Of a stretch of DNA of 64,000 bases, positions 185 through 34,020 are shown piece after piece. The translations under genes and the position numbers were made by a program. The notes under the pieces were generated by a model. That model did no database searches and was not told the DNA's origin. It saw only the letters and a program-made list of their open reading frames with translations. Source of the DNA: Ophelia neglecta (lineage: Eukaryota). The stretch is from contig OZ260663.1 in the NCBI GenBank assembly GCA_965285935.1, positions 32,860,001 through 32,924,000 on the forward strand, given 5' to 3'. How positions within the stretch are numbered: position 1 is the stretch's first letter; every line of letters starts with the position of its first letter.

Positions 185-348
185 CTGAGCAATAACAGCA
201 CGTTAACATAACATTCAACGAAAATTAACAGACAATAACACACTTGATTAAAGTTGTGATTTAAAAAAAATACACTGAATGTTAAGAATACTACCAAGAA
301 GGAAACGTAGTGGCCTTAGAGACAGCCTATCTTGTAAATCATCCTTAC

Positions 349-1461
349 CAATCGCAGACACATTCTGATCAACTGTCGTGAATTCAAATGTTGTTGAATT
401 CATTCCTTCTGCGTACCCTGTAGGGGTTACATTCTGCATGATACTGGTTGTTCCCTCTTGAAGTTCAGTTATATTATAATCGTACTGCATTGTGGTTACA
501 ACTGTGGCATTCCCATCTGGGCTTGTAGAACTTGTTTCAATTGTGACTGTTTTCTCGACTTCTTGAGTAACGTTTACAGTAACAGGAGGCACAGATGTGC
601 TTGTCATTGTTTCGAGGGTAGCGTTCATTGACTCGGTGGTACTATACAAGTCCGTCAGAGTCATTGATACGTTACCAGTGCCAGTTTGGGGTACAGACAC
701 TTCCGCAGAGAGGGTACTATAATCGTATTTCTCGGTTGCGTTTTTCTCTACAAGGGTGGTTTCCTGGGTGACAAATGAAGATTCAGTAACATTCCTGTCT
801 GATGAGAATGTTACGGATGTGTTGACGGAGGCTGACATTGTTACGGTAGACATTACCTGGGTAGTGGCGTTATCATACATATCCGTTACATGGGTGGAGT
901 TAGGCCCCTCAGTTAACATACCTAATGTGGCTGATACATTACTCGTCAGGCCTATTGTAGTGAAAAATGTCTCTTGGGTTACATTTTCGAAGCTTTGGGT
1001 GATATTTTCAGATACGGGACTAAATGTTGTGTTCGGCATTGTCTCGTAAGTGAAGTTGGACGACTGTGTTGCAGGAAGCGTCGTCACTATATCTGTGACG
1101 GTAGCATTGTCGACGCCAGTCGTCGAGATTGAATCTAGTGTACCATTTTGTTCTAAACCTTGTGTAACGAAGGTAGTTGTTGTGGCACTTATATCTGGAA
1201 TGATGGCACTGGATTCCGAACCAGTGTCATTTATCGATGGCGTAGTTGGCACCAACGGAGTGCCGCCTGTTGGAGAAAGTGTTATATTCGCAGGTGGGTA
1301 AATTGTTATGTTCGCGGATATTGTTCCATTTACTGTAAGAGTTGTTTCAAATACTTTTGATGCCGTTCCTGTGGTTTCAAAGACTGTGCTTTGATAACTA
1401 GATGCTGTGGCTTCCGTGGAGGTGGTCCCGGTAGGCAAGGTTGGCAATGAAGTTTGTTCAC
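349..1461 (-). CDS. Gene 1 third Thr-rich stalk exon, saturated with N-glycosylation sequons
   Basis: 1113-nt phase 1-1 exon inside ORF 248..1561. Acceptor AAAG|GTGAAC, donor G|GTAAGG. Confidence 0.88.
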
Positions 1462-10400: not shown

Positions 10401-13400
10401 CTGCGATTCAAATGTTTGTGACAACGTGCCCTCTGGTGATGGTCTCGTCGTCCTTTCTTCAATTGGTTGTTCTAATGTTGAATCCGATACAAAAGATGAG
10501 GAAGGCATTGATCCTGCTGTTGAAGGGGGATGTATCGATGTCATCTGGATGGTAGAGGAAGCTGGTGGACTACCACTGGAAACAGAAATCTCCTGGGTTG
10601 TGTTCTGAGCATCCGGTTGTGATGGTAACGCCGACACTGGTTCTTTGGATACCGGCATTGACGTAGTAATGTCTTTGTATGTGGCAGTAGTTGAGTCACC
10701 CAATGTAGCATTTGCCGAGGGGCCTGTTGTGAATGAGTCGTTTTGCAGCGGGCTGACACTTGTAACCGTTGGGAAACTTACAGAGGAAGACGCAGTTTCA
10801 TTGGACGGGGTAACTCCCGTCGAGGCCTGGCTTGGAGCAGTTGCTCCTTGAGTGACTTGGATATCTGGACTCAGAGAGGAAAAGTCTGTCTCCATTTTTG
10901 TTGGAATGGCGGAGGTCATTAAGGCAGTCGACTCGGGTCCGCCTGAAGGCGGCGTTTCCGAGGATGCCCCATCACTTGTACCGTTGCTGCTTATTTCTGT
11001 GGTAGCTTCATACACAGCACAAGCATCACATGATCGCATGCAGTTAAGGTTCATCCAAATTTGATTTGCTTCACATTCTCCTATCTCCGCCCATTCATCG
11101 CAACGAGCTTCGTCTTCATATACATTCACGCACTCTGTCATGATAATGTATTAACAGAGTTTATATCTAATATAAAATTATCTTACCATTATATGAGACT
11201 TCAAAATCATGGAACTAGAAGTTTTGCGATAATAAACAGAATAGATGAATAACACTAATTCATTTGCATCAAAGATAAAACTAGCAAAACATTTTATTAA
11301 GCAAAACTGGAGAAAATAATTTACTTCTATAATAGTAAATAAGATAAAATGTTAGTTTGGAGTTAGTATAAGGCAGGCACAGAGACTGCTTACTGCATGT
11401 AGTGGATGCTTGCTCACAGGTCTTCAGTATGTCGTCCCACACCAGTCCTGAGGGACAAGGCAGGTTGTCATAGAACTCTCCCCCGCCACAGGCAGCGTAT
11501 ATTTCACACCCACCACATGACTGGTAGTTACCATCGGGGCGACCCTCACAGCTCGAGATACACCGTTCTTCTGACGCTAAAAAATATAAAAACATAAGCC
11601 AATTATACCTACGAGACATCAAAGAGTCATCAGAATTTGAGGAAAATTAAACCATATAATTATAGTTCGAACATGTACCGTCTTAGCTTCTCAAATCATT
11701 GATGGTAATAGTAGTTTTAGCCTTATTTTCTTTTTAATTCTACTAAATACGAAACCTGATATAGTTTACAGTGCCAAGTATATAGAACTAGCAACTCTGA
11801 TACTAACATTAGCACCGCAACGTCACTAAGAGAAAAATTATGGCTATTGATTAAACGCGGATGTGCGGAGGCGGAGGTCATGAGTTTTTCGATACACGAA
11901 GCAAAATATTGTCAGCAAGGATAGGGGTAGGGCTGAAGGTTAAGTTTAGGGTCAGGGAAAGGGTTAGGGACAGGTTCACAAAGGTCTAGTGTTGTGTCCT
12001 TATCTCGACATTTACCTCCGCAAGGCTCCGTGCCTCCGCTTTTAATCAAAAGCCCAAATTATCATGGCACCGCCACGTCACTAGTGACAAATTTACATGG
12101 CACGGTCACGTCACCAGTGACACATGATAGCGGCGTGGCAGACGATATCCCGGGTTGGAGGGGAAGTTGACAGACAGTAGACAAAACATTTAACAGCAGC
12201 TCCCCAACAACCAATTTAATGCCGGACTTAACCCAAAATAAACTACAAATTGACTTCTTTGTTTCAAAGTTGCCCCTAAATGAATGGTCACCAAGTTTAA
12301 AACCAAATGTTAATATGTGTTAACATATTATAAATATGAGTTGACTGTCCAATATGATAGTGTCTGGTATATTATCCATATGCCAATATTGTTTTGTACT
12401 TTAAAAAAGCCTCAGACCTATATGGGTTTTTTCAAGCGACAATATCATATTGGCCAGACAATAAATATAACCTGTTTTTTCGCAACTGAAACGGTACAGC
12501 TCAAGCAAAAAATGCGGACAGGCGATACAAAGCACGGTAAGCAAGATATGAAGCTAATAAAGCAAATACCACTTGGAGGGTCAGAGGGCGAGACGCATGC
12601 GCCACAAGCCTCTCGACAGTTTTCCTTCATGTAGTCGGGGTTGTTGTTACATTCTCCAAGCAATGCCCATTCCACGCACTGTGAGTCTCCTACTATATTG
12701 CCACATGCTACAGGAAAATGGAACATTCATATCAGGTGAAAGCAGAAAAAATGAGGCCGCCATTGCGTTCAGCAAACGAAATAACATTGAGAAAAAATCC
12801 AATAAAATAAGCCAGTATTCGGGTACTTAATTTATCGACTCGTTGTGTGAATGCTTTTGATGGGAATCATTAAATAAAAGGGAACATGGATTGAAAAAGT
12901 CACCATCATGCATTTTATTAAACGTTTGTTTTAAGTATTTTTCAAACAGGTACCTAGTAGATCTAAATTCTATGGATGCAGGAAATAACAATAAGTCAAT
13001 ACAGCCACGTTGTTAATAAAACCATGCAAGGATCGGAAAAAAAGGAAATGGTATTCTTAGTTAATGTCATTACACATGCACTGTAAACTCAGACTACCGT
13101 CACGGACGCACCGTCACGGACATACTGTCACGGCCGTACCGTCACGGACGTACCGTCACGGACGTACCGCCACGGACGTACCGTCACGGACGTACCGTCA
13201 CGGACGTACCGTCACGGACGTACCGTCACGGACGTACCGTCACGAACCTACCGTCACGGTACGTCCTCGGCGTACCGTCACGGACCTACCGTCACGGACA
13301 TAACGTCACGGACGCTGCAGTGCTGGAATATAAGATTCGCACTAAGGCTACCGTTTTCATTTCACATCAGCCTCCGTGCTGGTTACGGATTTAAACTTAC

Positions 13401-16400
13401 ATTAAGTGTTTAATCAATAAAATCTTCTAATTAATATGACGGGTTTTGGAGAAGGTTATATTCAGAAAAAATGCAACGTTTTCAATGGCTTGACAGTTGA
13501 GTTCAACACCTTCTTTACTACCATAATTAAATAAAGTTTGAACGAATACCATACATAATATCGGATTTGGCTTCAATTTCGCAAAAAAAAGGCCTTCAAA
13601 CGACATAAATTCAACCGTTGAAAGGCTTTGTTAGTCGTAAAATGAAGTATATTTGAAGTCACTCACGCAGTATACGCTTAATCTGTACAACTATATCTTG
13701 CTTTACCTTTCAAATAAATGATCAAAAAAACATGTTTCATTAGCTAAGGTTAGGAGTACCATATAAATATTCTTGACTTACTCTTCAACAAATAAAGAAC
13801 TGAAAGAATCCAAAGCATCTTGACAGAAATACTCCGAGAATGACTTCTAAATTTCTATTTATGAAAATTCAAAATGATTTTGTTTGTACCAATAGGTTTG
13901 AGGGTTGTCACGGGAATTAAGCTTTCTACACCCTTGCAGACACCACAAGACTGTTGGCAATTGAAGAGCATCCACGGATTGATTTCACAATGTCCGTCAC
14001 GTGACCATATGTTACAATCAGTATCGTTTCGATGGGTGTTGTTACACTCTATGTGAAATATGAAAATATCGTCACCTTAAGTTGCAATAATTCCTTCTCT
14101 CAGGTAAATTTCAATCGGGCTAGGGCTTCTTTTAAAATCACAGGTTGGTGCATTGATAGGGGTTAAATAAACTTGGCCAGGAAAGCCGATAAGACCCACT
14201 TAAATGCGAAATGTATATACAATTTTAGTTTGAACTCTTGAAACCGAGCAACTTGGTATTTTTAAGCAACCTATACTACTTTTTGACAAATCTGAGTAGG
14301 GATGAACAGAGTGCTATCGGCCATCTAATGTAACAAGCCTTGTCATAGGGCGAGGTTTCTACACCGTCGACTTCCGGTACGGTTTGTTACAGTAGAAAAT
14401 GCCTGATTGAGTTATGGAGATGTCACTATACTATTTCCAAACTCTAAAGCTATTGAACATGCAGGTGCCAGAAAAGCAAATGAGCCTATATGGTGGAGTT
14501 CGATTGATACTCATATACTACTGAGTCAGGTTACTGCATATTATACCGGTTGCAACGTTGGGGAATGTAGTGGTTTCCGCCAAGGGAGAGAATGTGGTTG
14601 CCTGGCTACCAACATATGTGCTGGGTTCTACACATGCGCCACAGGCTTCCTGGCAGTTACGAAGCATCCAAGGAGGGTTTTTTTGACACTCCCCAGTTAC
14701 CGCCCACAAGATACAATGTGTCTCTGCGTCGGGGTTTTCAGCGATATACTTGTTACCACAACCTAAATAAATATTAAATCAAAATAACTGTTTAATTTGT
14801 TGGGAAAAATAAACAAATAAAAGTTACCATACCTTCAAATATTAGTAGTGAGTAGGGATCAGTCGCGCTGTACAGGTTATTAACTTGCGTGCAATAAATA
14901 ACATAAATTAGATTAAAAATATTAAAGGAAAAAAATGCATCGTGTGAAAAAAAAACATGTTTCAGCTGAGAACATAAGAAGCTATACAAATGGAATTAAT
15001 TATATTTTCTATATAAATATTATTCATAAATTATTTGGGCTACAGAAAGGAAGAGATACATACCATGCGTATAGTATAAAGAAACGAAAAAAGGGTTGTC
15101 AACAGAATTTGACTTTAGATGGGTTTTAGAACATGTCGGCAAGATGTAAACATATAAAATGTTTTTTTCGAGGGGAAATTCTTAATAGTTAGATTTGGCA
15201 CCACACAACGCAACTGAACAGAAACACTGAAACGTTGATCCTACATTAGAGCCATGCTTGCTTTCGGTTAAACAAAAACGAAAAAGGTGATGTCCTTGAA
15301 TGGGGCGTTGTGAAAGAAAGTTATCACGAAGTGCTACAAAATCACCGGTTAGATGGATGCATAATGATTGTGTGCAAGAAATCATGTGTGTGTGAAACAT
15401 GCATGCTTGTCTATACCGATTTCTGGGCACTCGCCGCACGCCTCTCTGCAATTGAGGTTCATCCAGGCTTTATTCTTTTCACATTCTCCTAGTCTCACCC
15501 ACTCCTGGCATTCTGCGTCATTTTCGTGGTAATTGCCACAACCTATATCAGCCACCCACACAATAAAAATTAAACTTAGGGAGCCAGATACCAAGCCAAT
15601 AACAAAAACATACTGGTTCCAAGAAGGCTTGTATTAAAAAAAACACTTTAAACCATTTCAGGAAAACCCTTATTTCCATAATGTTATAAATGAGTAAGCT
15701 TTTACAGGTAGTGCATTAATTCCAGCTTGTGTTCCTTCGCCTGGTCCCACCAAGCTAACGATCAAAGCTAAAGCGTGTAGCAAGTTTTTCAAAAAACAAA
15801 TTTGGTATTTTCATACCATATTTGTATTATTTGTTTACATGCATACGGCACGCTATACAACAAATAATAATTCGCAAAAGAAATTTCAATAGCACCGACA
15901 TTGCAGGGAAAATAATTACCATTCAATTTGAAATTTAATAAAAAATACAAAACATATTAAGACATATCACGACAATGACAAGAGAACTACACGTAAAAGC
16001 TTCCATTACCAGTTACTTTAGCTGATGTACTCTGACCAAGTTCGGTGACTTCCCGTGGGCCTTGTGTCGTCACGTCCGTTACTGTAAATTAAGTAAATGG
16101 AACTTATATGAGATACTCATTAAACACAGTATATGTCGTAACCGCCACGAGGAATCTACTTAGTTCTAAACTATGTGTTTGAAATAACGATATACCTTCA
16201 ACATGATATACAATCCTATGCTATACAGTAGTTTCGAATTTCAGGCTTTACCAATGATTAAGAGTTTTAATAAGGCAGAGAAACATGTTATTGATTGTTT
16301 TTCTAATACTAATACTAACGGAGCAAAGTAAATAAAGCTAATTGTTTATGATAGTATGTCTAGGCAAACAAGCATGTAAGTGGATTGCTTCTTAGTGTGA

Positions 16401-19400
16401 TAATGAGTAATAAGAATCATTAATTGGTTTAATAAGAGCGATAGAAAGGTCACAGAGAAGACCACCGTTCGTGTCAATTAGCACAGAGGTGTGACATTAG
16501 CCTGAAAGATATCGATGACGACCGCTCGATCGTTTATCGAACTTTCAACGTGAAATAGGTCGTGCAACTATGACATTAAAATGTGCTCTTAGGTATAATG
16601 ATGGCCGTTCCTATATATGCCTGTATCCGGATTAGGTGAACTAGCGTCTATTGGGCCTTTTTTATGCTGCAGATAGCAAGTGCAAAGAATCGTGAAAAGG
16701 CGTTTCCAATGCAGCCAAATCAGTAACAATTTTGTTAGGAAATCACCTGTTGTTTGACCGCTCATATCTGTGAGGGGACGGTCAGTCAGGAACCGCGTCG
16801 TCTGGTTTAGCCTGGGTAACTGTGTAGTGACAGCTGGTAGGGATGACGTCACTACCGGTTTGTCTGCAGTGACAGTCCCTGCCGATAACGTCCCGATGAA
16901 CTCTGTGGTGAGAGTTGCTGTCAGTGCGACCATGGGCTCGGTGGTGACAGCCGGTACTGGTGTTGTCACGGACAGACCTGAGGTGACAGTCTGTGTTGAT
17001 GGCGTTAGGGGTAACTCGGTGAGGCCAGTTTCTCTGGACTTCTCGGTAATTCCTTCAGTGATATTAGAACTACCCTCAGAGGGGGCTTCTGTCACACTTT
17101 TGTCAGTCCCAGCAGATGGTAACAAACTTCTGTCACTTTCTGTTACCACGGAGTCTAGTGCTGTCATATTTGAGGTTGACATTAAACCATCGGTTGTCGG
17201 AATTGGAACAACCTCTGTCTCGTCTGTTGATAAACCTTTGGTGCCTTCGATAAGTGCCGTAGAAGATGGTTGGTCGGTTACAGTTCCAGAGGCTGCGCTT
17301 TTTGTTGCATTGTAATCAAAGGTTCCCATTTCTGTGTTTGGAACCCCCGTGTTGGTCAACCCCGCACCTAAATTGCCCTGGGAATCCCCATTGACAGGTG
17401 TAGTTATATCCACAGGAAGTACCACAAAAGTTGTCTCCTTAACTTGTTGGGTGAGTGGACCCGTCTGTCCTGCATTTGTTGTGGTTTGCATCACAGGGCT
17501 GCTCTTGTTTGTCAACTCATCAATACTTCCAGGAGAGTCTGATGATTGGATTTCTTTGCTATTTGGGCTTTCAGAGGAATATGGGACTGTCTCTGTACTA
17601 GTATAAACTGATATTAAGGGGGACGTGTAACTTTGTTGATTTTCAGTCACTTTTCTCAAAACTTCAGAAGCTGTGGCGTTGTCATCGCGATCTTCGATGT
17701 GGGTAACTGTTGGAAAATCAGATGCTTCTGACAAACTTACAGTCACTGGAGACTCGAATAAGCTTCCACCTTGTGTGGTGTTAACTTCTCCTTCCATAAC
17801 AGAGGAGCCATTCCCCCCAATAGTAGGTATATATGTACTACTTGGAGGTAACTGGCCCTCTGGAACCTCAGTGCCGGAAGCTGATGTAACTCCAGGACCG
17901 GTCGCATCTTCAGAAGCGAATGAATCTGACTTGAAACCAGTGACGTCACCCACTGATGGTTTGATAGTTGATGAAATTATATGCTGAGCAGATGCCGAGG
18001 CCGAGGTACCAGTAGCTGGTCTAGTACCACTGCCGGAAGGTGTTAGTTTTAAAGGCTCATCTGTAGTATTTTCTATTTCGTCTGTGATTGGGGAAGGAGA
18101 ATATTCTGATTGGTTAATTGTTCTTGTAATTGTGTCATTAGCAGTTGCCAGCTTGCCACTTGCGCCCGGTGGCCCCGCTATCCCAGGTTTCTCATTCTCA
18201 GAAGGCACAGGAGGGGCAATCGGATCTCCTTCTGGTAAGGAGCCCGAAGTACCTAGCAGACACAATCCACACGATCTACGACAGTGGATCCGCATCCAAT
18301 CCTCATATTCTTCATGACATTCACCATATTGGGCCCACGTTGAACATAGAGTATTGTTGTCGAAACATGCTTAAAATAGATTTATGTACCAAGCATATAT
18401 GTACGGGACGACACTTAAACAAGGACAAAAACACGAACACCAACACACCTACAAACATTCATGCATGATATTTCAAAGACAAACATGAAATTATTATATT
18501 ATTCGATATTATCAGAATTGACCTAGGAATGCGCCATACATTTAATTCATAGTTTTACATTACAACATTAAGATCAACGTATAAATTAATAAGATCACAA
18601 TAACAACACAGCTGTCAGTCGAGTAAGTTTCCATTTTCCTGGTACTTACTTTGACTGTCGCACAAGTTACACGACTTGGCGCAGCGTATCACCATCCATT
18701 CCGCGTTCAAATTACATTCTCCCTTTATCGCCCAGTCCTCACACTCCTCAGAGTCCTCATGGAGGTTCACACATGCTATTGACAGAAAATCGATGTTTAA
18801 TCACAATAATAACAGTATGCTGCAAAGTTTAAAGAGCAGTTATGTGTAGACTAGCATTTTTCCACTACAAGTCTCGCCAGATGAAGCGATTTCAGAATTA
18901 AACAATACATCCTTTGGTGTATAGTCAGGCATTTAAGTACTTATTTATACAGTGTCTTTTTTAAATCTGCTGGCTAACTCATGACTAAGAAGTAGCAAAT
19001 GGTTTAAAATGTGTTAATTTGGTAACTGATGTGTTATTTTCTTTATGAAAAAAACTGTCGCAGACGGGCAATCGAGAGCATGTTTTCCATCGGTATTTTA
19101 TTACCATTAGTTTACCTGTCATACAATTCATGTTGATTGCAGCGAAGCAACTTTCTTTTGAAATTCACTCGACAAAGAACAGAGACATGTGCACCTGATA
19201 TGCATCAATCCATGAAGCTAACAGAATGCTGTACATAGTCTATAGTCAAGCTCTAATGGTTTCTATGTGCTTAGTACAGGTGTATTGGGAAATTTTAAAA
19301 TCACGTTTTAGATGCATGTACATATTGTAAATTTTGATTAAAATGTTAAATTTACAATAAACGTAGAAACTCACAGCTATTCAGGGATTGCGTGTTGTTG

Positions 19401-21172: not shown

Positions 21173-21755
21173 ATAGGCCTATTTTGCATACCGGCCTATT
21201 AGGTTTCCCTCTAACCATTACTGTTAAGGCAAAGCTGTCCATACACATTGAGTGTGTGAGGTTATGGTCCATAATTTAGGCGCCGTCATTTCATTGAAAC
21301 TAAGTGTTAAGGACCTTATCATGTAACATACGTAAAGCCTTATTTCTAGATCCGTTCTTTCCAGCCCCAATTATTACATTTAATTTGCTCCAAAGTATAA
21401 AAATATATGACCTGTGTATTTCCAGTGTGTAGTAAAGTCATAGGCCCACACATTACACTGTTTAAATGAAATGAATATAATATAAAGGCCCGACTGCAGA
21501 GAAAAAAACATTATCACATATATTCAAGGTGCGTGTAAGGTGTAACATGAAGCTTCCTCTAAGGGAGGCAAGCATGGGGTATAGTTTGGGAGGATCTCGC
21601 GGCGTCGTCTAAATGTCAGCTCAGACAATCAGACACAGGTACACTCGTAAAGGAAGCGGTGAAAAAGTACACATTGAAAATACATTATAAAATGGAATCC
21701 ATGTTTTACTTATTATACCAAGTTTTGTAACCAGAGACCTGTTTAGAATCTCTTA

Positions 21756-21761
21756 TTTATT
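21756..21761 (-). terminator. Candidate polyadenylation signal (AATAAA) of gene 2
   Basis: TTTATT on the plus strand, about 230 nt downstream of the stop codon. The motif is common in AT-rich DNA. Confidence 0.4.
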
Positions 21762-21992
21762 CTAGACGTGACCTTTCAATAAATGTGTATGATTTTATCA
21801 TAAAGATTCAATTTGGCTGTATAATCTAAACAGTATAAATGAAACTCCACAAAAAGTCTGGCCTCAGTCCGTTACAGGCCTGTTAGTATAGGTCTAACCT
21901 AAAGAAACGTTGATATACATATATCAGGGCCAAGTTGTACAAGGTCCATGCTTTGAAGGCCATCGCGGTAACATGCGGCAGGTTGGTCGTAT

Positions 21993-22398
21993 TTAATACC
22001 CGTACGGCACGTACATCACCCGCCCCGGCTTGTCGTATACGCCGTTATTGTAACCAACCACAACCCGTGGGTCCTTGGTTTCTCGATTCGAACGGTCCCG
22101 ATCTATATGAGCCCGGTTACGCTTCTTGGCATACATCATCTTGTCACTATAAATAATTGGATGTCTTTAGGTTACATGATTATATTGAAAGTCTAAAAAG
22201 TCAATATCGTGATTGTGCTGTTGTTAAGTTTATTGACGCAGTAGTATTGAATACATCAACCACTTACTTTCTCCTGAAGCAGACGATAATTCCGACGACA
22301 AAGAAGAAGCAGAGAGTAAGAGCGGCCACGGGTAATATACCTATGGCCCACACTGGGAACTCCTGTCCCCGAGGCGTGGGTGAGCCTGTGCTGCCATC
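21993..22398 (-). CDS. Gene 2 transmembrane helix and cytoplasmic tail exons
   Basis: [28 protein letters not shown] followed by the stop-transfer RR. Tail ends [26 protein letters not shown]. Confidence 0.88.
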
Positions 22399-25300
22399 CT
22401 GAAGCATACAAGTCATTTATATTAAAGTCAATCATTTCCCATATCAAAGATTAAAGTAAAACTCCTGTCTCAATAAAAAGCTGTACCGATAAGCCAGTAA
22501 AAGTGGTAGTAAGCTCAATAGAGCGAGTGATCTTGGCGAGCAATAATGTACCAACCCCATCCCAAGGCATCCCATAACCCAAATCCCACCCAAACCGCAA
22601 TCCCTACCCCCACCACCTCCAAGCCAACCCCGCTTATTGGTTTTTGTGAACACTATATAGTCATAGCAAACTGGGAATTTGATTTGTCAATGCTGTCATG
22701 CTTTGCGACTTTCCACAAATATCATTGACATAGACAACAAAATTAACATAATCCCCAGACTAGGCCTACCTTGGCGAGCGTGACGTCACCAATTGTACCT
22801 CCGCAGCATCTTTGTAGCTGATTGTTAATTTCTTCTTTGTTTTCTTCAATTATCTGCTTGAAAATGCTTGGGTCGAGTACTAAAAGATAATTTCAAATAA
22901 TATTTTTTAAATCATATTGTAAGATGTAAATATCTTAGATTTCAAACCTATGAAATAACACTACTGTCCTTTCCAATTGTATCTGCATGCTATGGGCCTG
23001 ATCAGTGAAACAGGTAATCTCAGTCTACCTGATGATGGGATTTCTCTTTTCCTTCTGCCTGATCCCGGTGGGTAGGCTGAACACAGAGCATTGTTTGGAG
23101 CCCCATAAACATAAAATGTGATGTCGATGGCGTCCCTGCTGCCTTCCTTGGTATACACCGGGGAGCCTGCGGCCAACGTCACCTCAGTGGCAGTGCACCA
23201 GTCCAGAAAGCTGGCACTATAGGAAGTATGAGGCTTATAGACAAACACAGGTCCGACCCGGAAGATGGTATATACGAGATCCAGTATGAAGAAAACAAGA
23301 ATCTTGCTAAAAAGGTGAAACTATGCTATATAGGCCTTTAAGGTTTATTAAAAACAAACCCAAATTTGGCTTAAATGGTGCAACTAAAGCCTGTATGTAC
23401 ACATCAGCAGGGTAGGTCTAAACAAACCTTAAACATATATTTTCCCATAATATTTGTAACATGGTGTAAATACATATTTCGGTATAATATTTGTAAAAAA
23501 AAATAACTTTATAAAAAGGCATGAAAAGTTCTAATCTGATAGGCGGCACTAGACCAAGCGAGCTTCTTATAGATTTACACATGTCTGGTGTACAACAACT
23601 TTACACAAGGTACAGTAAAACCTGCGAATTAAGTCCACTCAAGCTCAAGGGACTTGAAACTACTGGTCGTATTATGGAGGCGGTCTGTTTACAAAGGTTA
23701 TTTTACATTTGAAGAGTATAACATGGTCATCATCCCAGTGGTCTGAATAAACAGGTGTGCTAAATTCAGAGGTGCTTTCAATGTTTCTGTTACAATGTTA
23801 AATATGCTTGTAATTAAATATCAATATGTAAAATTATATCATGTGTAGCTGTCCCCCACGTGTGACATGGGCAGGTAGAAGATGGGTTGTGTTACTAACC
23901 TGACACCGACATTTGATCCACGGCAGCAGTCGTGCACTTTTGTATTACAAAATTTGTTGATGTGAGGAGCAAATATTTGTCGGAGTGCTGTCCACATTAT
24001 ATGAAACTGAAGAAGAGAGATAAAATGTCCACCTGCTGCTTAACGTTAAGAAAACGTGTTTCCAAACAAATAACTGTGGCAAAGAATTAATTAAAAAGTT
24101 TGTTGCTATGTACACGGTATAATGTTACATATAAGGTACCCGCTCTATCCTCCATCATATTTAATAAATGTCACCTGAAATTGTGAATTTATGAATATTA
24201 AAGTAAAATATATCATATTACGTCAATGTATTCATCGTTGCGTGCACTGCAATCTTATATTGTGCTTTTGCTCTGGCATGCACTGGCATCGGCGACTCGT
24301 GTGTCTTTGTGCAATGTTTTCCTTATTTCATTGCTATATTGCCATATTGTCTTTAAATATCATAATTATTTACCAAAAACAGAGTGTTAAATTACACTTG
24401 TTCAGAATAACGTATAATATATGATCAGGTAGCATACCTTTTATTGATTACATGAAAATAATTGCATTGCTAAAGATATCAATATTATATTATCAAATAA
24501 ACCAAAAGTTCTTCAGAGAGTGAGTTTCCCTTATTGGAACTTTAGTGTTACCTTATAGTTAACAAGAAACAAAACCTTACTTTTAACAAGGAACAGTACT
24601 TTATTGTTAGCAAGAAATAATACCTTATTTTGTTAAAAGAAAAAAAATACCTGAGAAGGATGAGCATAGAGCCGTGTGCGCACCGATATCTTTATTTCTT
24701 CCTTTTTCTCTGGAAATGTTGTATAATACTCTAAAGACTCATTGTATGTTAACGTAATACAGCTAACTTTTATGCATAAAAGTAACTACATGTATATATG
24801 ATCGAGAGGCAGAAACACATGTAAAATAATCTACTGCCCAATAGATGTCAGCACTATATCAGTACCTATAACAAGTTACTGTGATTGTGACAGGTGGTGC
24901 ACTGCCTATAGGGCCAGAGTGTCAAATTAGTATTTAATATTAACATTCATCAAATACGGTCCTTTTTAAATATATAAATTATCGATTCTTAACTGTGAAT
25001 TAAATACTAGACAAAGTTGCTTCCGGGTTATTTAACGGTTTAAACGTAAGAAAGAAGGCAGCTCTGCATATTTTCCTGTGTATTTTCTCATAGCAGTGAC
25101 CCCAACATTTGATTCAGCCGCTGTGGGCACCGACGCAACAAGTTTAAAAAGCATTCATAAAACTACTCATTAACTAATCAATAATTATTTGTGATAAGTT
25201 TGTGGCTGAAGAGGTTCTCCCCACACCCCCCGATGGCGGATATATTATGTGGTGTATGTAATCGTAAGGGAAGCACGTGCATCAATTGCCTGAAAATATG

Positions 25301-28300
25301 ACTAACTTTGAAGATGAAAAAAGGAGGTTTTCAATGACAGCAGATATTAAATTTATATAATATGTATACATGTATAATTTGGCTGTTTAACTAAGTGATA
25401 GTACCTTCTGGAACCAGTATATGAATGCTCCACTGGATCGGCAGGTACTCCAGTGAGGCAGCACTCTAAAGAGGGCATTGAGCCCACTGTCACATGTAGG
25501 CACTGTGGCGATATGACCGATAAGTGTTGAAAGCCACGTAAAACCCCAAACAACAACAACATCCACTGGATATAATTTTCAGAATTTTTTTCAGGCTTTA
25601 TACAACCTATACATTAGCCCCATTACTGATGGGGTTCTATAAGTTAACCCCCCTTTTTGTTGGGATGCTATAAGATAAGGTTTTTATAAAAAAGCCATTT
25701 TTTTGCCTGTTCCGTGTATCTTCTTTCATCATAACCTGCATACGCGGGCCTTCGACGATAAAATTCGGGCAATGAATCAATTTTTCGCCCCAGTTTTAGG
25801 ACTATTTTCCATTTTAAAATTTCTTTTAATACTATACTATAGGGTCAATTTTTCTGTGGCATTGCTATAAGAATGATCCCCCAACTTGAGTTCTATCTGT
25901 GCATCCCTACCATAAGTCTTGGACAGTGCCCACCCCCTACCACCACCATCCCCCCACCCCCCCCCCCCCCACCCCCCACCAACCCCCCACCCCCCATCCC
26001 CTGGTGCTTACGCTTTGTACAATCTCTAAAACTTTTGACGTTGCACATACTCTACCTTACGATTACTTTAACACATGAATGCATGGCCGACTAGGTGCGT
26101 GGTTCTCCCCTACGTCAGGAGTATTTCTTAGGACATATTTTCCCAAAGAATTGGTTAATTAGTTAAATTGATTAAGTTCCTAATGCGACATGCCTATTTG
26201 CAAATAGAATGGGATCACCAGTTACATTGCAGATCTATAAGTTAGGCCTATACCGGTAAACTTGCTATTATCGTCTACTTTCAAAGGATATTCATTACCT
26301 ACGTCTTACCTTGACAATTTTCTCCCTGAAAGTTGGCAGTGCACACACATTTACATAAATTCGCTCCTAGAAAATGACATGAAGCTTTTCAATTCGTGTG
26401 GTATTAAGGAGTAATGGAGACTATATATATTTCCTATTGATACATAATAAATGACAAGTCTTGTTAATCACAAATTTAAAACAAAAAAGAAACGTAAAAA
26501 TAGCCTAATTAAGTTGTGTTGCATTAACTGCGTAATGATACTTTACATATTTCACTTACAGCTTTTGCTAGGAGCAAAATCATTGCTTGGCTGAAACAAT
26601 GTTCCTTACCGTTGTCAAAGAATGGAGTTCCGCTGTTTTGACAAGGGTAAGTTGCACAAGGCAGGGGGCTCGGCGTAGTGGGAACAGGAATCGGCGCTGT
26701 GGTCGTTGTGACAATGGGGGTTGGAGCTGGGGTTGGGTTAGGAGTGACAATGGGGGTTGGAGCTGGGGTTGGGTTAGGAGTGACAATGGGGGTTGGAGCT
26801 GGGGTTGGGTTAGGAGTGACAATGGGGGTTGGAGCTGGGGTTGGGTTAGGAGTGACAATGGGGGTTGGAGCTGGGGTTGGGTTAGGAGTGACAATGGGGG
26901 TTGGAGCTGGGGTTGGGTTAGGAGTGACAATGGGGGTCGGAGCGGGGGTTGGGTTAGGAGTGACAATAGGGGTTGGAGCGGCGGTTGGGTTAGGAGTGAC
27001 AATGGGGGTTGGAGCTGGGGTTGGGTTAGGAGTGACAATGGGGGTTGGAGCTGGGGTTGGGTTAGGAGTGACAATGGGGGTTGGAGCTGGGGTTGGGTTA
27101 GGAGTGACAATGGGGGTTGGAGCTGGGGTTGGGTTAGGAGTGACAATGGGGGTTGGAGCGGGGGTTGGGTTAGGAGTGACAATAGGGGTTGGAGCGGCGG
27201 TTGGGTTAGGAGTGACAATGGGGGTTGGAGCTGGGGTTGGGTTAGGAGTGACAATAGGGGTTGGAGCTGGGGTTGGGTTAGGAGTGACAATGGGGGTCGG
27301 AGCTGGGGTTGGGTTAGGAGTGACAATGGGGGTTGGAGCTGGGGTTGGGTTAGGAGTGACAATGGGGGTTGGAGCTGGGGTTGGGTTAGGAGTTACAATG
27401 GGGGTCGGAGCTGGGGTTGGGTTAGGAGTGACAATGGGGGTTGGAGCTGGGGTTGGGTTAGTAGTAGTGGTAGGTGTGACACATGAAGGTGGTCCACTGG
27501 ATGCCACTGAATACAAGAAATAAGAAATATGACGATTAGAATAAGGATTCTTGGTCTGTTTATTCTATATCCCTTCCTCATTTGTCTTCGAAAAAATAGG
27601 GCAAATAGCTCTGCTGTAGCCACGAATAAAACTCCTTTGGCTGTGATTATCACATATCGTCCTATTAGGCACTAAGGTTTATATACCAGGATAACTCACC
27701 ACACAGTTGGCACATCATGGGACATCCATCGCGAATCATTTCACCGTATGTTAGATCAGAGCACATGAAGGCCGGCCAACCTTGATTGCAATTGGCGCTT
27801 AAATCTTGACATACCTCTGCAATGAATTTGTCACCCTACTAGTAATCAACTCCTTTGGTATACAGACATTAAATTTGTCTAGTCCTGCCCTTCAACAAAC
27901 TAAAAATCCTTAATGCAGCTTTGGAGTGTCCAATAAAGTTAATGAAAAAATATATTCTGTCTTTAATTTTTAAAGCATCCATTTTATGTAATTCGAATCT
28001 GTTCATAGCGAGATTTAAATACTATTTTTGTTCCACCCATAGCATGCTCATGATTTCCAAGAATTGGCCTTGATTGCAAACGCGAAATTATTCATTTACG
28101 CAAACAGTTAAAGAATGTGTTCAAATGGGCGCCTTGTACCAACGTCTATACTACTAAACATGTTAAACTTCTAACACTTCTCGCCTTTTAAGAATCACAA
28201 GTGGAATTACTATGGCATCTGGAAGACAGCTCTAAAATTTGTTTTGCTTCAATGAAAGTAGCATGTTGATTCTTACCCTAAATGCGTATCACTTAATCAA

Positions 28301-31300
28301 AAAGAACTCTTGCAATAATGTTGTGACATTCGTGTAAACTTATTAGATTAAGGGAGTTTCTTACAATCCGATAAACTTTGCCACAGGTATTGACGTTCTT
28401 ATTTAAATTCAACTCTGAAATTCAAACTTGCCAAACACGACAATCCAATAATTTATAAACGGAGAAGCCCATCTTACCAGACAGCTCTACCTTATATCAA
28501 TAACCTTACAAAAACAAACTAGAATAAGGGTACCCGGAGATCAGATCCGTCATGCTCGCCAGGTGGCGCGTCATCTATCATCCCGACCCACCTGACACTA
28601 CTGTTAGGGTTAATATTCATAATGCCGGAAAGTGGAAAGCGGACAGCGAATGTAATAAGTAAACATACTGATATATCAAAGTAGACAGTCACCGATTGCC
28701 GGAAATATTTGAAGAAACGGGATTATAACAATTCTTGTTCAGCTGCTGGTGCTTCGACGTAGAAGCTCCACACTCTTTCACACAACAGACATAGTAAGGC
28801 ATGATCGCTTATTCATATGTCCTACTTCAGTAAAATTTTAAGGCCTAAAAAATTAAATTACACGGCCATAATCGGCTTACACTTCCTTGAGACATGTTTT
28901 TTTTGTAAACAGCTGGTTTTCTTATCCCTACTTTCTCGCAGAAAGCGCTAATCTCGCGAGATTATTACACAACACGGTGGCGGTGCCTTTCGGCGATGTA
29001 TCTCAAATAGGCTATGTTGCCTAGTAATTAAATGATCTACGGGGTCCCTTATTGATTCCCTTACGATTTCATAACATGTACTAAAGCTTTATTAATTCTT
29101 CAAACCACATCATGAATTAATACTTTTCATCATTTGTTTGGTTTGCTCATCATCGTATTTTCAATGCGTAATAATTGTAATAATTAGCATATATTTTTTT
29201 CCGTTGCAATTCTGCTAGACTTTAATATTGGCTCATTTATAGAGGACCTATAAGCCACCGGCTTCCTATCAGCCTGCCTATAAATTCTGTGCATTTAAAA
29301 ACTTATTTATATCCTGGAGCATTTATTCTAGTGTTTATTAAATGTATACTTTGTCAGTTTGTAAATATACTCGGTATCAACTTTAAACATTTATAAATTG
29401 AAATGAACTAAATTAATTTAAATTTATTTGGGAGTATAACTGTCTCATGTAATACGTACGCGAGCAATCCGCCCCCATCCAGCCAGCATCACATGTGCAC
29501 GAGCACTGGGTCGCAGTCTCAACTTTAGTTCCACAGTTTTTGCAGTTAGCTTGACAAGCTGAAAAATAGGTAGTTTAAGCAAAAAAGAAGGTCCAACGTT
29601 TCAAAATATGATAAAGTTCGGTTTACGGAAGGTTATATAGTTTCCTTACCACACTGTGGGTCGTTCAGATTGGGACATTCTCCTTAGATAAATAAGAAAC
29701 AGGTAATGTCACATGACGGTTAATAATAGATGTTCTATTCAAAACATGTTTCGTCACGGATAAGAACAACTCAATTATATATCCAGGGTAGGTGTATTAT
29801 GGTTGCACGCTCTACCAGCGGATGAACATGCCTAGGAAGTTTTTCAAGAAATTGGCAACCGTTCCACCCTCACAGCGTGTATTAAAATAACCTCGGTTTT
29901 ATATAACCATCATAGATTTATATAAGTTGAATAAGACGAAGGGTCGAACACTATTCATACCCATGATTTGTTCAATGAAATTCACAGTGTACGTAGTGCT
30001 AACCGTACAGGGAGGTACGGTAATCGTCATGGCAACTGATGACTTTTATTGGCTAATTTACATACCTTTATTGGGTCTTTAGCAGCCCTTAAATGAAATG
30101 TTTGATACCGCGCAACGGAAGACACGTTGATCGTACCGATTAAAACACACTTTGCGATCATCGAAACAAACTGTACAACATTTGTAGTCTGCTACTGTAT
30201 GGATTTGAACAGGGGTTTTACCTTTTTTAAACGGATACATTTAGAGTGAGACTTCCTTATTAAATGTTTCGTTGAGAATAGAGACTGATTTGGGCGATGG
30301 AAATGACTTAACTTATGTGTGTAACTTCCCTATGGAACTCACCTGCCGGCATAATGATGACCGCACAGGGAGGTACGGTCAACACTACCTACACTGCATG
30401 TGAAGTTGGAGGTAAAAATCTTACTTTCACACAAGTTGCCAAGGCACCAACTCTTTCCATTGGTACATAGACTACAGGCCGTCCCCTTCAGAAACGGGAA
30501 CTGATTAGGGTAATTTCCACTATCAATATAAATAAGAGAAAAATATTATTCACATAGACGTCTCTTTCTAATTTGGTTATTAAAGTGACATCAAGGAAAT
30601 ACATCCCATTCAAATATATTTATTAAATTACAGTGACCTTAGGAATTAGATCTAACACCTGCACGTTGAATCGGAAAGAGTATTGGTCTATTACAAAAAA
30701 CGAGTGTCACGAGTTGACGCTAAATCTATTAGCAAAAATGCTGCGATCTAAGAGAATAAATGCCATTCCTTTCGCTATCTAACTTAAAAGGGCAATAGTA
30801 GGCAATTTAATATTTGTAATTATTTTGGAAATATGCCATTCAAACGTATACTTCATTTGCTACAAGTGCCATCAATACTTTCTATTTTGTCGAGGAATAC
30901 ATGACAAGACAACTTACGCAGGACCGTAGTTGCAGACCACAACCAATCCGTTTGTTATAGCTGAACCTTTAATGGTGGCGCACGTTTTCCATCCACAGCC
31001 AATGTCTCGACTCTTTGCCCAAACTAACTAAATAATAATGGTCAAAAGTTTAAAGATTATTTCGAAAATAAATGGGTTTGTTGACTGGTAAGTTTAGAAA
31101 ATATAATGATCATTTACCTGTGTGTAATGGCCACATAATTGGTTAGCCTGACAAACTTGGGTGGAATAGTCATAAAACGATTTTTCTTGGAACCATGCCT
31201 CGATGACGTCACTGATGACGATGTTGCTGCCGGATGTAGTATAGATGTTCTGTCCGATAGGATCGTAGGGTGGACTGGGGACTGTCGGCTGTCCGTGGTT

Positions 31301-34020
31301 AAAATCACACGTGTCTGCCCAGTCCTGCGCCATGTCCGCCAGAACAGTATGCCACACCTGTACAGAGGGAATAGGTCATTAACGGGTAATATGTTATCAA
31401 GATTGTCATGCCAGGCAGCCGAACAATTCAGCCTACATATTCATATAAAGATGAGACATATGGGAAAATCTCTATGTTCATGTCATACAATCTGAACAAA
31501 ATCCGTCGACATAGGTATGAATAATGTAATATGAAAAAACTGAACTAAGTGACCAATCAGATCACATCAAACCAAATCCTTCTTATCTACTACACGCTGG
31601 TGGGTGTATTGAATTGGTTTCTATCTATATGGCTTAACTTGTGTCAGGTGTATTTCTTCCCCTGTCTCAGTATATTATTCGATCGTGTTTATACAAGCTC
31701 CTACTCCACGGAACTGAACTGAGGAATAGGCTCTCTTTAAAACGACAACGTGACTTAGAGTGTTCGCAAATATTTCTTGCCAAATGTGTCCAAGGGTTTC
31801 GATCTAGGATGAACAATGAGCTAGCCAGATTGATATCAAGTTGACGCAACCAAACAAAAAGGAGGTGGCTCAACTAAAAATATACAGTAGGCTCAACTAG
31901 TATTAGCTGTGTCAGGTTGTTCTAGTTATCTTCACTAGAAAATCCGAAATTCTTTTTAAGAGTGTAGAGTGCTGAGAAAGGACAAATGAACCTTGGGACA
32001 AATTAAACTTCGGATTCTAGGGATGTCATCAGAAAGTCCACATCATTTCAAAGTTATTTCTTTTGCTCCTTACAGCGAGGAAATCAGTGAGATATAAACC
32101 CATTGAGCCAAAAGTGAGATTTGTTTAAGTCAAAAAAGGTAAAATATTTGTCCAAAATCTGCAGCCCTTGTAGTATAAGCGAGAAATCGTAAGTTGGCCA
32201 TAGGCTGTTTACAGAAACGTCCTTAATTATTAGGAGCACCAGATCCCAGGATTTTATATAGGTATATACTAGCCAGACGACACGGCAAGCCACATACACG
32301 GCGCTTACAGCTTGTAGGACGGAAAGGGGTCTGTTTGTAATAAATCTTCAATGTATTGCTATGTATTTCTGTCTTTTTGGCAAGCACATAAACATATTAT
32401 AGTTACATTTAAGGCACTTTAATTGTGCTTTTTAATGTTGATTAATTCTGGCCACCACTCTGTTCACCTGCTAAGAACACATGTAGCCGACAGTGCAATT
32501 AAGCTGATCAAATGCGTCGACCTCTAATAGAAAAAAATCAAACGCAAAGAATATACAATTGCAATGGTAATGAGAATTTATTGTTAATTGTATTCTTCAA
32601 TGTAAGATATTTTTCCCGGAATGGAAAAAAAGAGTTTGCTCCTCATCTTTATTTTTAAAATCAATGGCATAAAAACTCAGGTCTATCGTTTGTTGACTTT
32701 ATAGCTTACTTCTGAAAGCAAAGCGAAAATGAACTTTAAATACATATATTTTATAAAATGGTACGAGAACACATACGAAATAATAAGTTAGGGTACGGTT
32801 TTGACAATGTTAGGGTATCGTTTTGCTAACAACCCAACTGAAATATTTCATCCGAAGGCTTAGCCCTATCGCAAATCCATGTAGGTCTATATGGCGCTTG
32901 ATGATAACCTTTATTCCTCCATTCATAAAAATTATCAAATAATGAGTTAACTAATAGTAAAAAATTATGGAAACCACATGAATGTTATATTAAGGTATAT
33001 AACAATATTTCACCAACGAAAAGAATTATTACATACAACACCGTCAATAATTAATGTCAGTGTAATAAATACAACTATAGTATTTTAACTGTCCACGTAT
33101 CTGCTAACTGTGTCTCGTATATGCAATTTTATATGCAAATTTCGCAGTGTGTCCCTTTTAAGAGGAAAACTTATTCCTTCAGAAAGGACCACGGGAAGGC
33201 AAAAGAATGTCTATATGCCGATGTAATGGCATTTCTAGATTTATTTAAAAACCCGTTTCATCTATAACGGCGCGCTTGTTTGTCCTCTAGTTTGACCTGT
33301 CTGTCCAAAATATCCAATAAAAGGGGAAGACATCACTTCTTTGTGAAAATGATGAATAGTTGGAAGTTGTAATATTGACATTAACCTTTTCAATTCTCTA
33401 GGCCTAGTCTCTAAACAGCGCCAGAACATGTAGGACCTGCTATGATATATAAACAGCTTTCTTCCCTTTATTTAAATAAATAGAAAAAAACTCAACCCAT
33501 CCTGAAACCTATCTCTTGGTGGCCGTATTTAATAATGTTTGATGAACTTTTTTTTAATGTAGCAGCCCCTTTTTCATTAGCCTATTGCAGAATATATGTT
33601 TAACAAGAGCAGAAAATTAAGTTTTATTTCTTTTATGTTTGAAATATTTGTTTAATGGTGGGGTTTAAATTCAGGCTTTATTTTTTGTATGTTCAAATAT
33701 TTGGGCTTTTAAATATGAAAGTAATTTTAATGGGTAGTACTGTAAAAATGTTTTCTGGAGATTCTTACCAGTCGTTCCATATCCGAGGAGCCCTCTCCAA
33801 CCCTGTAATTGTTATGCACGTCCACTATTAACTGCTGCTCAGCGCTTGTAAAATCCGTTGTTCTCCTCTTTACTCTGTGGTGAATGACTTCTCCAGACAT
33901 ATCCTTCCCGAATAAAACTTGATTAGAGTTTAAATATGCCTCGCATCGTACTTGAGAAACTCCAAAGCTGATGTATAGCGCCAGCCAAGCTTTCAAAAAC
34001 CGATCGTTTGGTAGCATCAT
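21993..34020 (-). CDS. Gene 2: complete type I membrane CAP/SCP-EGF-ShKT-PT stalk-EGF protein, 882 aa
   Basis: 15 phase-consistent GT-AG exons: 34020-33769, 31357-31118, 31027-30918, 30519-30425, 29682-29650, 29558-29460, 27816-27700, 27506-26610, 26366-26310, 24709-24651, 24006-23900, 23216-23029, 22879-22770, 22398-22268, 22146-21993. Total 2649 nt, ATG to TAA with no internal stop. Confidence 0.9.
23613..23781. mobile_element. Degenerate Tc1/pogo-type MITE fragment
   Basis: Begins TA|CAGTAAAACCTG with internal TGGTC..AATAAACAGGTG subrepeats. The right end has decayed. Confidence 0.35.
25435..25560 (+). mobile_element. SINE-like 3' fragment with (CAA)n tail
   Basis: Ends GATATGACCGATAAGTGTTGAAAGCCACGTAAAACCCCAAACAACAACAAC, a tail style I recall from invertebrate SINEs. 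Single copy in the window. Confidence 0.45.
26707..27459 (-). repeat. Coding minisatellite: 21 x 36 bp encoding ([12 protein letters not shown])n, the mucin-like stalk of gene 2
   Basis: Plus-strand unit GGAGTGACAATGGGGGTTGGAGCTGGGGTTGGGTTA. In frame within exon 27506-26610. Confidence 0.97.
27700..29558 (-). CDS. Gene 2 EGF-like exon (29558-29460) and ShKT-like exon (27816-27700)
   Basis: [31 protein letters not shown] and [37 protein letters not shown]. Neither is in the ORF track. Confidence 0.8.
29985..30396. mobile_element. 412-bp element with inverted ends, each carrying an ACCGYAC-AGGGAG-GTACGGT hairpin
   Basis: Outer 24-bp inverted repeat (21/24 identity). Hairpins at 30002-30021 and 30360-30379. 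Confidence 0.65.
30425..33860 (-). CDS. Gene 2 CAP (SCP/PR-1/CRISP) domain and Cys-rich hinge
   Basis: [57 protein letters not shown], then [11 protein letters not shown]...WCLGNLC. These are canonical CAP signatures. Confidence 0.95.

What the first reader, a model, noticed from the sequence alone, without database searches (positions are those of the whole stretch)
21993..34020. Membrane-tethered CRISP-like protein: CAP-hinge-EGF-ShKT head on a 250-aa Pro/Thr pole
Seen: a complete 882-aa ORF with signal peptide, propeptide ending RVKRR, CAP domain, hinge, EGF, ShKT-like domain, 21x12-aa stalk, EGF, juxtamembrane domain, TM helix and a tail of about 50 aa. Established: vertebrate and venom CRISPs are secreted CAP-hinge-ICR (ShK-fold) proteins, CLEC18 combines CAP with EGF, and GLIPR1 is membrane-associated with no long stalk. 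Inference: a receptor-like CAP protein that holds a CRISP-like head beyond the glycocalyx. The CAP metal-site His residues are kept (FNHG, GHYTQ), but the GEN motif reads GQN.
Basis: partly seen in the sequence, partly recalled or inferred. Interest (0 to 1): 0.7.

Follow-up and report, generated by a model that had tools for sequence, protein, structure and literature searches.

The report
Furin-split, membrane-tethered CRISP-like mucin
This 15-exon animal gene belongs to an old, unnamed family of marine-invertebrate proteins that are predicted to sit on the cell surface and carry a CRISP-like binding head on a mucin-type stalk, joined to the membrane by an unrecognised linker domain that the protease furin likely cuts, so that the head could be displayed and later released.

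Summary
Fifteen minus-strand exons with 14 GT-AG introns give an open 882-aa frame with the domains described. A paralogue has the same 33-, 59- and 107-nt exons. The layout is not unique. It recurs in two paralogues of this genome and in 7 complete and 4 partial database proteins from annelids, echinoderms and amphioxus, mostly named 'uncharacterized'. GQN is family-wide (67 of 67). Stalk length varies from 19 to 283 aa, so the long pole is not a family trait. The head matches molluscan CAP-ShK type II, and a CAP domain on a spacer with a membrane anchor is known from PI16. The combination, a CAP head on a cleavable membrane-mucin chassis, was not found in four paper searches. Verdict: new variant of a known kind, likely a displayed and sheddable binding module, not a toxin. 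Function is untested.

The parts
33769..34020 (-). Exon 1 (aa 1-84): likely signal peptide, propeptide, start of CAP domain
   Evidence: ATG at 34020, in-frame stop just upstream
33862..33876 (-). Furin-type site RVKRR ending the propeptide (aa 49-53)
   Evidence: an R-x-K/R-R lies within 30 aa before CAP in 36 of 57 relatives that have upstream sequence
31118..31357 (-). Exon 2: CAP core with H105, Q120 (GQN), E142, H161
   Evidence: Pfam CAP 36.2 bits; best solved relative GLIPR1, E 2e-12
30918..31027 (-). Exon 3: CAP C-terminal strands
30425..30519 (-). Exon 4: CRISP-type hinge (4 Cys)
29650..29682 (-). Exon 5 (33 nt): two-Cys loop
   Evidence: 33-nt phase 1-1 exon at the same place in paralogue A, 36 nt in paralogue C
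29460..29558 (-). Exon 6: EGF-like domain 1
   Evidence: Cys columns 245, 249, 262, 264, 266, 275 invariant in 67 of 67
27700..27816 (-). Exon 7: ShKT-like six-Cys domain, no Lys
   Evidence: Pfam ShK E 0.012, under cut-off
26610..27506 (-). Exon 8: Pro/Thr stalk and first half of EGF 2
   Evidence: aa 326-597 hold 108 Pro and 73 Thr
26708..27465 (-). 36-nt tandem array, 21 units of 12 aa
26310..26366 (-). Exon 9 (57 nt): second half of EGF 2
   Evidence: paralogues A and C encode this EGF within one exon
24651..24709 (-). Exon 10 (59 nt): SEA-like domain, strand 1
   Evidence: 59-nt phase 1-0 exon in both paralogues; profile alignment
23900..24006 (-). Exon 11 (107 nt): SEA-like helix 1 with C..CC motif
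   Evidence: 107 nt in paralogue A
23029..23216 (-). Exon 12: SEA-like strands 2-3 and the basic loop
23045..23056 (-). Second furin-type site RRKR (aa 743-746), in the loop between strand 3 and helix 2
22770..22879 (-). Exon 13: SEA-like helix 2 and strand 4
22268..22398 (-). Exon 14: transmembrane helix (about 22279-22350, aa 805-828)
   Evidence: hydropathy peak 2.82
21993..22146 (-). Exon 15: cytoplasmic tail and stop

Best explanation
The gene has 15 exons that join into an open 882-codon frame, predicted to make a type I cell-surface protein with a CAP-hinge-EGF-ShK head on a likely O-glycosylated Pro/Thr stalk, anchored through an EGF and a predicted SEA-like domain that furin likely cuts, so that the head would be displayed on the surface and released when the cut domain comes apart. 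Shown: the exons, domain order, both basic sites, and the family's spread. Predicted: the SEA-like fold (on a homologue). [quoted passage not shown] The tail likely serves trafficking more than signalling.
For: Gene model: (shared exon sizes and phases in two paralogues). Family: a profile from 10 homologue domains hits the window model at E 4.9e-13, paralogue A at 8e-32 and the independent P0132 at 6e-40. Fold: pLDDT 85; the best four VIA rows are protocadherin-15 MAD12 (Z 12.7, rmsd 2.5, 110 aligned), then CELSR1 9.4, Nup54 9.3, cadherin-23 MAD28 9.3 and IA-2 8.1, with MUC16 SEA, Notch2 HD and dystroglycan lower; Foldseek ranks the ACE2 neck, PCDH15 and Notch NRR first but none at E <= 0.001; Atlas leads are SEA and KIAA1549 clusters at scores under 0.9. 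Cut site: strict R-x-K/R-R in 10 of the 12 sequences that reach the loop and in paralogue C; the loop is low-confidence in the model, residues 109-125. Precedent: KIAA1549 and Notch are cut by furin within a membrane-proximal SEA-like domain, MUC1 by itself (PMC13570299, passages). Two other CAP membrane proteins in the set (Lingula P0017, Lamellibrachia P0036) use a Pfam SEA domain with a GS-I-I/V motif in the same position. CAP domains bind lipids and sterols (PMC4921858, passages).
Against: No cleavage, localisation or ligand was tested. The window's own SEA-like domain was not folded, only the sea-star homologue's. P0088 has only basic clusters and P0121 none in the loop. In KIAA1549 the shed ectodomain was not detected. 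SEA-bearing rows do not cluster on the CAP tree (12 changes for 13 rows, shuffled mean 12.5; quick tree, 149 columns), so the family's history is unresolved. The window protein has an extra Cys at 696 and a Cys pair at 776-777 that could link the two pieces covalently and block release. The ligand-binding role rests on other CAP proteins.
Confidence: 0.55

Rival explanations
1. The membrane part is only a sorting anchor: furin cuts in the Golgi, the pieces part at once, and the working product is a secreted CAP-EGF-ShK-mucin that joins mucus or matrix.
For: Strict furin-type site in 10 of 12. The stub would keep only one helix and one strand of the fold. Of 67 rows with this head, 35 show no anchor and 17 only a terminal hydrophobic tip (some are fragments). 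Oyster type II genes are mantle-specific (PMC6409789, passage).
Against: The whole SEA-like fold is conserved on both sides of the site from annelids to amphioxus, which suggests that the pieces stay together, as in other cut SEA proteins (PMC13570299).
Confidence: 0.2
2. A signalling receptor: ligand or pull on the head opens the SEA-like domain, Notch-fashion, and the tail passes on a signal.
For: Single TM helix, 54-aa tail with several Tyr; fold kin include the force-sensitive MAD12 and Notch HD domains (their mechanics are recalled).
Against: Tails differ in length and sequence among homologues (1 of the stored proteins gave a marginal TM-tail match). Paralogue A keeps the SEA-like domain but has no tail. 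No YxxL/I/V/M/F motif in the tail.
Confidence: 0.15
3. A tethered ion-channel modulator or toxin-like protein acting through the ShK domain, like venom CRISPs.
For: Six-Cys ShK pattern; venom CRISPs rank next after GLIPR1 among solved structures. The dyad is not strictly needed for activity (PMC6409789).
Against: The ShK-like domain has no Lys and one Arg. The family is spread over non-venomous animals.
Confidence: 0.06
4. The membrane exons are wrongly joined; the real product is a shorter secreted CAP protein.
For: Reading through the donor after the ShK exon meets a stop at once, so a short isoform is possible. The 59-nt exon has a weak donor.
Against: Complete one-piece database proteins have the same order; paralogues share exon sizes and phases; listed allelic differences avoid these exons (0 of 40 in 21500-26680, P 0.0006).
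Confidence: 0.04

Closest known systems
Molluscan CAP-ShK type II (Cumia CreCAP-ShK 4-7, Conus Mr30 and Tex31; PMC6409789, passages)
   Same: CAP domain after an N-terminal spacer, followed by EGF-like and poorly recognisable ShKT domains; no Lys-Tyr dyad.
   Different: Those described are 295-452 aa secreted proteins. This one adds a mucin stalk, a second EGF, a SEA-like domain, a TM helix and a tail. Clade membership was not tested.
PI16 / peptidase inhibitor 16 (PMC5171773, passage; GPI anchor and 'membrane-tethered' seen only as reference titles in PMC7541153)
   Same: CAP domain held on a hydrophilic spacer with a membrane anchor; surface and secreted forms.
   Different: The passage names no EGF, ShK or SEA-like domain; no cytoplasmic tail (recalled).
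Transmembrane mucins and SEA-like surface proteins (MUC1, KIAA1549, Notch HD; PMC13570299, passages)
   Same: Pro/Thr-rich stalk, membrane-proximal SEA-type domain, a cut inside it, TM helix and tail. KIAA1549 and Notch use furin.
   Different: No CAP head in those. The domain here misses Pfam SEA and lacks the GSVVV self-cleavage motif. The basic site lies between strand 3 and helix 2, whereas MUC1 is cut between strands 2 and 3 (recalled).
GLIPR1 and vertebrate or venom CRISPs
   Same: Best solved matches for the CAP-hinge part (GLIPR1 E 2e-12 by sequence; E 1.6e-18 by fold of a homologue).
   Different: They have GEN where this family has GQN. CRISPs go straight from hinge to ShK-fold domain and are secreted (recalled); here a loop and an EGF intervene.
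Cnidarian NOWA (PMC11565402, figure legend only)
   Same: Annotated with a CAP domain and a SEA domain in one chain.
   Different: Has a C-type lectin domain and C-terminal repeats; the legend lists no EGF-ShK head or TM helix.

Membership tests
CAP superfamily | CAP domain over the Pfam PF00188 cut-off | tested here: met
   36.2 bits against 21.1 on exon 2 alone
CAP superfamily | Canonical His-Glu-Glu-His cavity tetrad (PMC4921858) | tested here: not met
   H105, E142, H161 kept; first Glu is Gln120, as in 67 of 67 family rows
CRISP (vertebrate, venom) | CAP-hinge followed directly by the ShK-fold domain, no membrane anchor (recalled) | tested here: not met
   EGF between hinge and ShK; TM helix present
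Molluscan CAP-ShK type II | CAP plus EGF-like plus non-canonical ShKT domains | tested here: met
   definition from PMC6409789
Molluscan CAP-ShK type II | Falls in the type II clade with Mr30 and Tex31 | not tested
   None of those sequences was in the set used for the tree
Molluscan CAP-ShK type II | Secreted, ending after the Cys-rich region | tested here: not met
   Chain goes on for about 560 aa to a TM helix and tail
PI16 | CAP, hydrophilic spacer, membrane anchor | tested here: met
   Layout only: against PMC5171773
PI16 | Orthology to vertebrate PI16 | not tested
   No vertebrate PI16 in the tree set
SEA domain (PF01390) | Match to the Pfam SEA profile | tested here: not met
   0 of 10 domain sequences; no SEA row for the family members among the 13 proteins
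SEA-like / MAD domains | Ferredoxin-type beta-alpha-beta-beta-alpha-beta fold next to the membrane | tested here: met
   On homologue P0069: DSSP order, Z 12.7, rmsd 2.5, 110 aligned; linked to the window protein by profile E 4.9e-13
Self-cleaving SEA mucins | GSVVV-type motif (recalled) | tested here: not met
   Not in the window model nor in alignment A4; a like motif is present in P0017 and P0036
Transmembrane mucins | Tandem Pro/Thr/Ser repeats in one large exon | tested here: met
Transmembrane mucins | Dense O-glycosylation and apical surface location | not testable with these tools
   Inferred from 73 Thr in 272 aa
ShK toxins | Lys-Tyr dyad (PMC6409789) | tested here: not met
   No Lys in aa 278-315
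CLEC18 | C-type lectin domain after CAP-EGF (recalled) | tested here: not met
   No lectin match in the 10 window exon frames or in the full-length homologues

The most novel reading that the evidence does not exclude
An ancient, undescribed bilaterian family of CAP-headed membrane mucins with its own SEA-like subfamily, in which furin cuts one element later than in MUC1 and leaves only a helix and an edge strand on the membrane stub: a low-force release latch that sheds a CRISP-like head from marine-invertebrate epithelia under shear, and a possible ancestral layout from which secreted and GPI-anchored CAP-EGF-ShK proteins (including venom-recruited ones) arose by truncation.
Probability: 0.25. 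Interest if true: 0.7.

Novelty: new variant of a known kind. Interest (0 to 1): 0.45.

Why it matters
The physiological role of CAP proteins is a long-open question. A family that ties a CAP-EGF-ShK head to a cleavable membrane-mucin chassis, present in sea stars, sea urchins, amphioxus and annelids, gives a handle: surface location, cleavage and ligand capture can be tested in established models. It also adds a SEA-like domain subfamily that Pfam and PDB sequence searches miss, and it puts the venom-recruited molluscan CAP-ShK proteins next to membrane-bound kin. Each part has a known precedent, so the surprise is moderate.

Tried and rejected
RNA support: no RNA holder listed; the three runs laid show unspliced sequence and one sample, so splicing was not seen directly. 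Single-exon protein searches failed: CAP exon 2 alone gave 0 hits of 10 candidates; exon 12 gave 7 hits among 1.84 billion representatives, and the 6 read were repeat-inflated unrelated proteins (P0002 not read); the Atlas gave no usable hit for it; own-genome searches with exon 12 and with a paralogue exon found only themselves although paralogues exist. The search with the SEA-like alignment returned 6 proteins and missed 5 of the 10 it was built from, so the lack of mollusc, arthropod, cnidarian or vertebrate hits shows no absence. No PDB sequence match for the domain. A two-copy complex of the SEA-like domain gave no answer (score 0.01). A disulfide between the odd Cys252 and Cys324 was tested by co-occurrence and not supported (52 both, 9 only the second, 5 only the first, 1 too short). 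An exon-4 end at 30343 was rejected: wrong phase, and it runs into a local repeat. Five other CAP loci of the genome (C9:50.98, C5:18.77, C5:12.14, C5:72.76, C2:89.79 Mb) and the middle gene at C5:51.61 Mb showed no clear SEA-like or TM exons in the stretches fetched; these may be too short. The careful tree did not finish; the quick tree is poorly resolved. Four papers asked for by id were not held. Four look-ups in earlier findings gave one unrelated note. No supplements were read; supplements of PMC6409789 could list membrane-bound type II members.
Full report
Observation. The region 21993-34020 holds a minus-strand gene. Reading the DNA and its frames gave 15 exons. Joined by coordinates, they have 14 GT..AG introns with matching phases and one open frame of 882 aa. 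Domain order: hydrophobic start, propeptide ending RVKRR (49-53), CAP, four-Cys hinge, two-Cys loop, EGF, ShK-like domain (279-315), a linker of 283 aa with 21 repeats of 12 aa, EGF (599-632), a domain of about 155 aa, TM helix (about 805-828) and a 54-aa tail. There is no N-glycosylation sequon. The signal peptide was judged by eye only.

Support for the splicing is indirect but strong. The genome (762 Mb) has at least two paralogues near C5:51.6 Mb. Paralogue A reads open for 550 aa from its second exon and has 33-, 59- and 107-nt exons with the same phases at the same places. It ends in a hydrophobic tip without a tail, which looks like a GPI signal (inference). Paralogue C has a 36- and a 59-nt exon, a Ser/Thr stalk of about 250 aa and a TM helix; its frame is open from the CAP exon to the TM helix, and I did not settle the junction to its tail exon. 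In three runs of one sample, 2 of 80 listed substitutions and 0 of 19 listed indels fall in the exons, against about 12 substitutions expected (55 substitutions and 3 indels were not shown).

The layout is old and widespread. An alignment of 8 CAP exon pieces found 2183 proteins, of which the best 120 were listed. Comparing the model with the 131 stored proteins part by part and reading 14 of them showed the full order, head-stalk-EGF-juxtamembrane domain-TM-tail, in 7: Owenia P0039, Acanthaster P0062, Asterias P0069, P0088 and P0108, Antedon P0101 and Diadema P0105. Branchiostoma P0050 and P0132, Acanthaster P0121 and Lamellibrachia P0131 are partial members. Their database names are mostly 'uncharacterized'. 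Of 99 rows with most of a CAP domain (of 135 sequences), 67 have the CAP-EGF-ShK head: 12 with the juxtamembrane domain, 3 with a TM helix and tail but without it, 17 with a terminal hydrophobic tip, 35 with no anchor seen, some being fragments. All 67 have His, Gln, Glu, His at the four cavity positions, where Pry1 has His, Glu, Glu, His (PMC4921858, passages). So GQN marks the family. The linker between ShK and the next EGF is 19-127 aa in 10 relatives and 283 here (3 rows did not fit the pattern, among them paralogue C), so the long pole is this gene's own expansion.

The juxtamembrane domain is the new element. Ten homologous stretches align with invariant G, W, C, CC and near-invariant GxP, C and R. 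They match no Pfam family credibly and no PDB sequence. Their profile hits the window model over aa 636-773 at E 4.9e-13. The sea-star domain folds with pLDDT 85 as strand-helix-strand-strand-loop-helix-strand, and a full-length crinoid model shows the same. The nearest folds are protocadherin-15 MAD12 (Z 12.7, rmsd 2.5 over 110), CELSR1, Nup54, cadherin-23 MAD28 and IA-2, all above the unrelated rows; MUC16 SEA, Notch2 HD and dystroglycan come lower, at Z 5.5-6.7, among unrelated ferredoxin folds. Foldseek ranks the ACE2 neck, PCDH15 and Notch NRR first, none at E <= 0.001. The Atlas gives SEA and KIAA1549 clusters as leads under 0.9. That these proteins form a group of divergent SEA domains is recalled. 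A strict R-x-K/R-R site lies in the loop between strand 3 and helix 2 in 10 of the 12 sequences that reach it; the window has RRKR at 743-746 and paralogue C has RRKR too. Several members have two such sites around a short peptide. The loop is disordered in the model.

Mechanism. Most likely the protein is processed twice by a furin-type convertase, once at the propeptide and once in the SEA-like loop, and reaches the surface as a non-covalent pair. Precedent: KIAA1549 is cut by furin in its membrane-proximal SEA-like domain, Notch likewise, and MUC1 cuts itself and stays whole at the membrane (PMC13570299, passages; there the shed KIAA1549 ectodomain was not detected). Two other CAP membrane proteins in the set, Lingula P0017 and Lamellibrachia P0036, carry a Pfam SEA domain (P0036 under the cut-off) with a GSII or GSIV motif, so a cleavable SEA behind a CAP head appears more than once. 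Here the stub would hold only helix 2 and strand 4, an edge strand in this fold (recalled), which suggests easy release (inference). Against this, the window protein has an extra Cys696 and a Cys pair after the site that might lock the pieces. With 0.25-0.31 nm per residue assumed, the stalk would be 68-84 nm long. The head is best read as a binder of lipids or proteins. Its ShK-like domain has no Lys, which argues against, but does not exclude, channel block (PMC6409789). Tails are not alike among homologues and one paralogue has none, which weakens a signalling role.

History. On a quick CAP tree of 99 rows and 149 columns, the 13 SEA-bearing rows are scattered (12 changes, shuffled mean 12.5; starred branches force at least 3), and the window row has no starred home. 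One origin with many truncations would fit, but the tree is too weak to show it.

Comparison with what is known. The head is that of molluscan CAP-ShK type II, described as secreted proteins with EGF-like and poorly recognisable ShKT domains, with Mr30 and Tex31 in the clade (PMC6409789, passages). A CAP domain on a spacer with a membrane anchor is known from PI16 (PMC5171773, one passage; reference titles in PMC7541153). A CAP and a SEA domain are annotated together in cnidarian NOWA (PMC11565402, legend). A starfish 'PI16-like' protein in print is a 220-aa secreted CAP protein, not this family's long form (PMC10448888, passages). Searches for CAP or SCP with ShK, EGF and transmembrane and for CAP with SEA listed no paper describing this layout; I saw listings and abstract starts for these and read passages of the seven papers named, and subscription papers are not held.

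Verdict. Real, correctly described, and a member of an unnamed bilaterian invertebrate family. It is assembled from known parts, with one unrecognised SEA-like domain and a conserved cut site. New variant of a known kind; interest 0.45.

Noticed in passing
window 248-18370, minus strand: A large neighbouring gene or genes with at least three ShK domains, a chitin-binding peritrophin-A domain, LDL-receptor YWTD repeats, an EGF-like piece and three long Ser/Thr-rich exons: another mucin-like ShK protein next to the CAP gene.
   Followed up: partly
window 58817-63556, plus strand: Exons of an alpha-2-macroglobulin / CD109-type thioester protein with an intact GCGEQ motif.
   Followed up: partly
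window 46206-46586, minus strand: Reverse-transcriptase fragment, likely a LINE remnant.
   Followed up: no
window 25440-25560: Very high-copy short repeat in intron 9 (summed contig depth in the hundreds of thousands), SINE-like; further repeats near 23600-23750 and 28520-29020.
   Followed up: no
window 49352-50040 and 13095-13314: Tandem arrays with 37-nt and 14-nt units.
   Followed up: no
G000:C5:51594500-51627000 (L013-L016): Cluster of three CAP-EGF-ShK genes: one with a GPI-like end, one apparently ending after ShK, one with a Ser/Thr stalk and TM helix.
   Followed up: partly
protein P0017 (Lingula): A 1912-aa record joining a reprolysin protease, two CAP-EGF-ShK heads, a Thr stalk, SEA, EGF and TM; may be a real fusion or merged gene models.
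   Followed up: no
L025 (G000:C5 near 72.754 Mb), minus strand: An intronless 401-aa frame that looks like a ligand-gated ion-channel subunit (by eye), downstream of a CAP gene.
   Followed up: no
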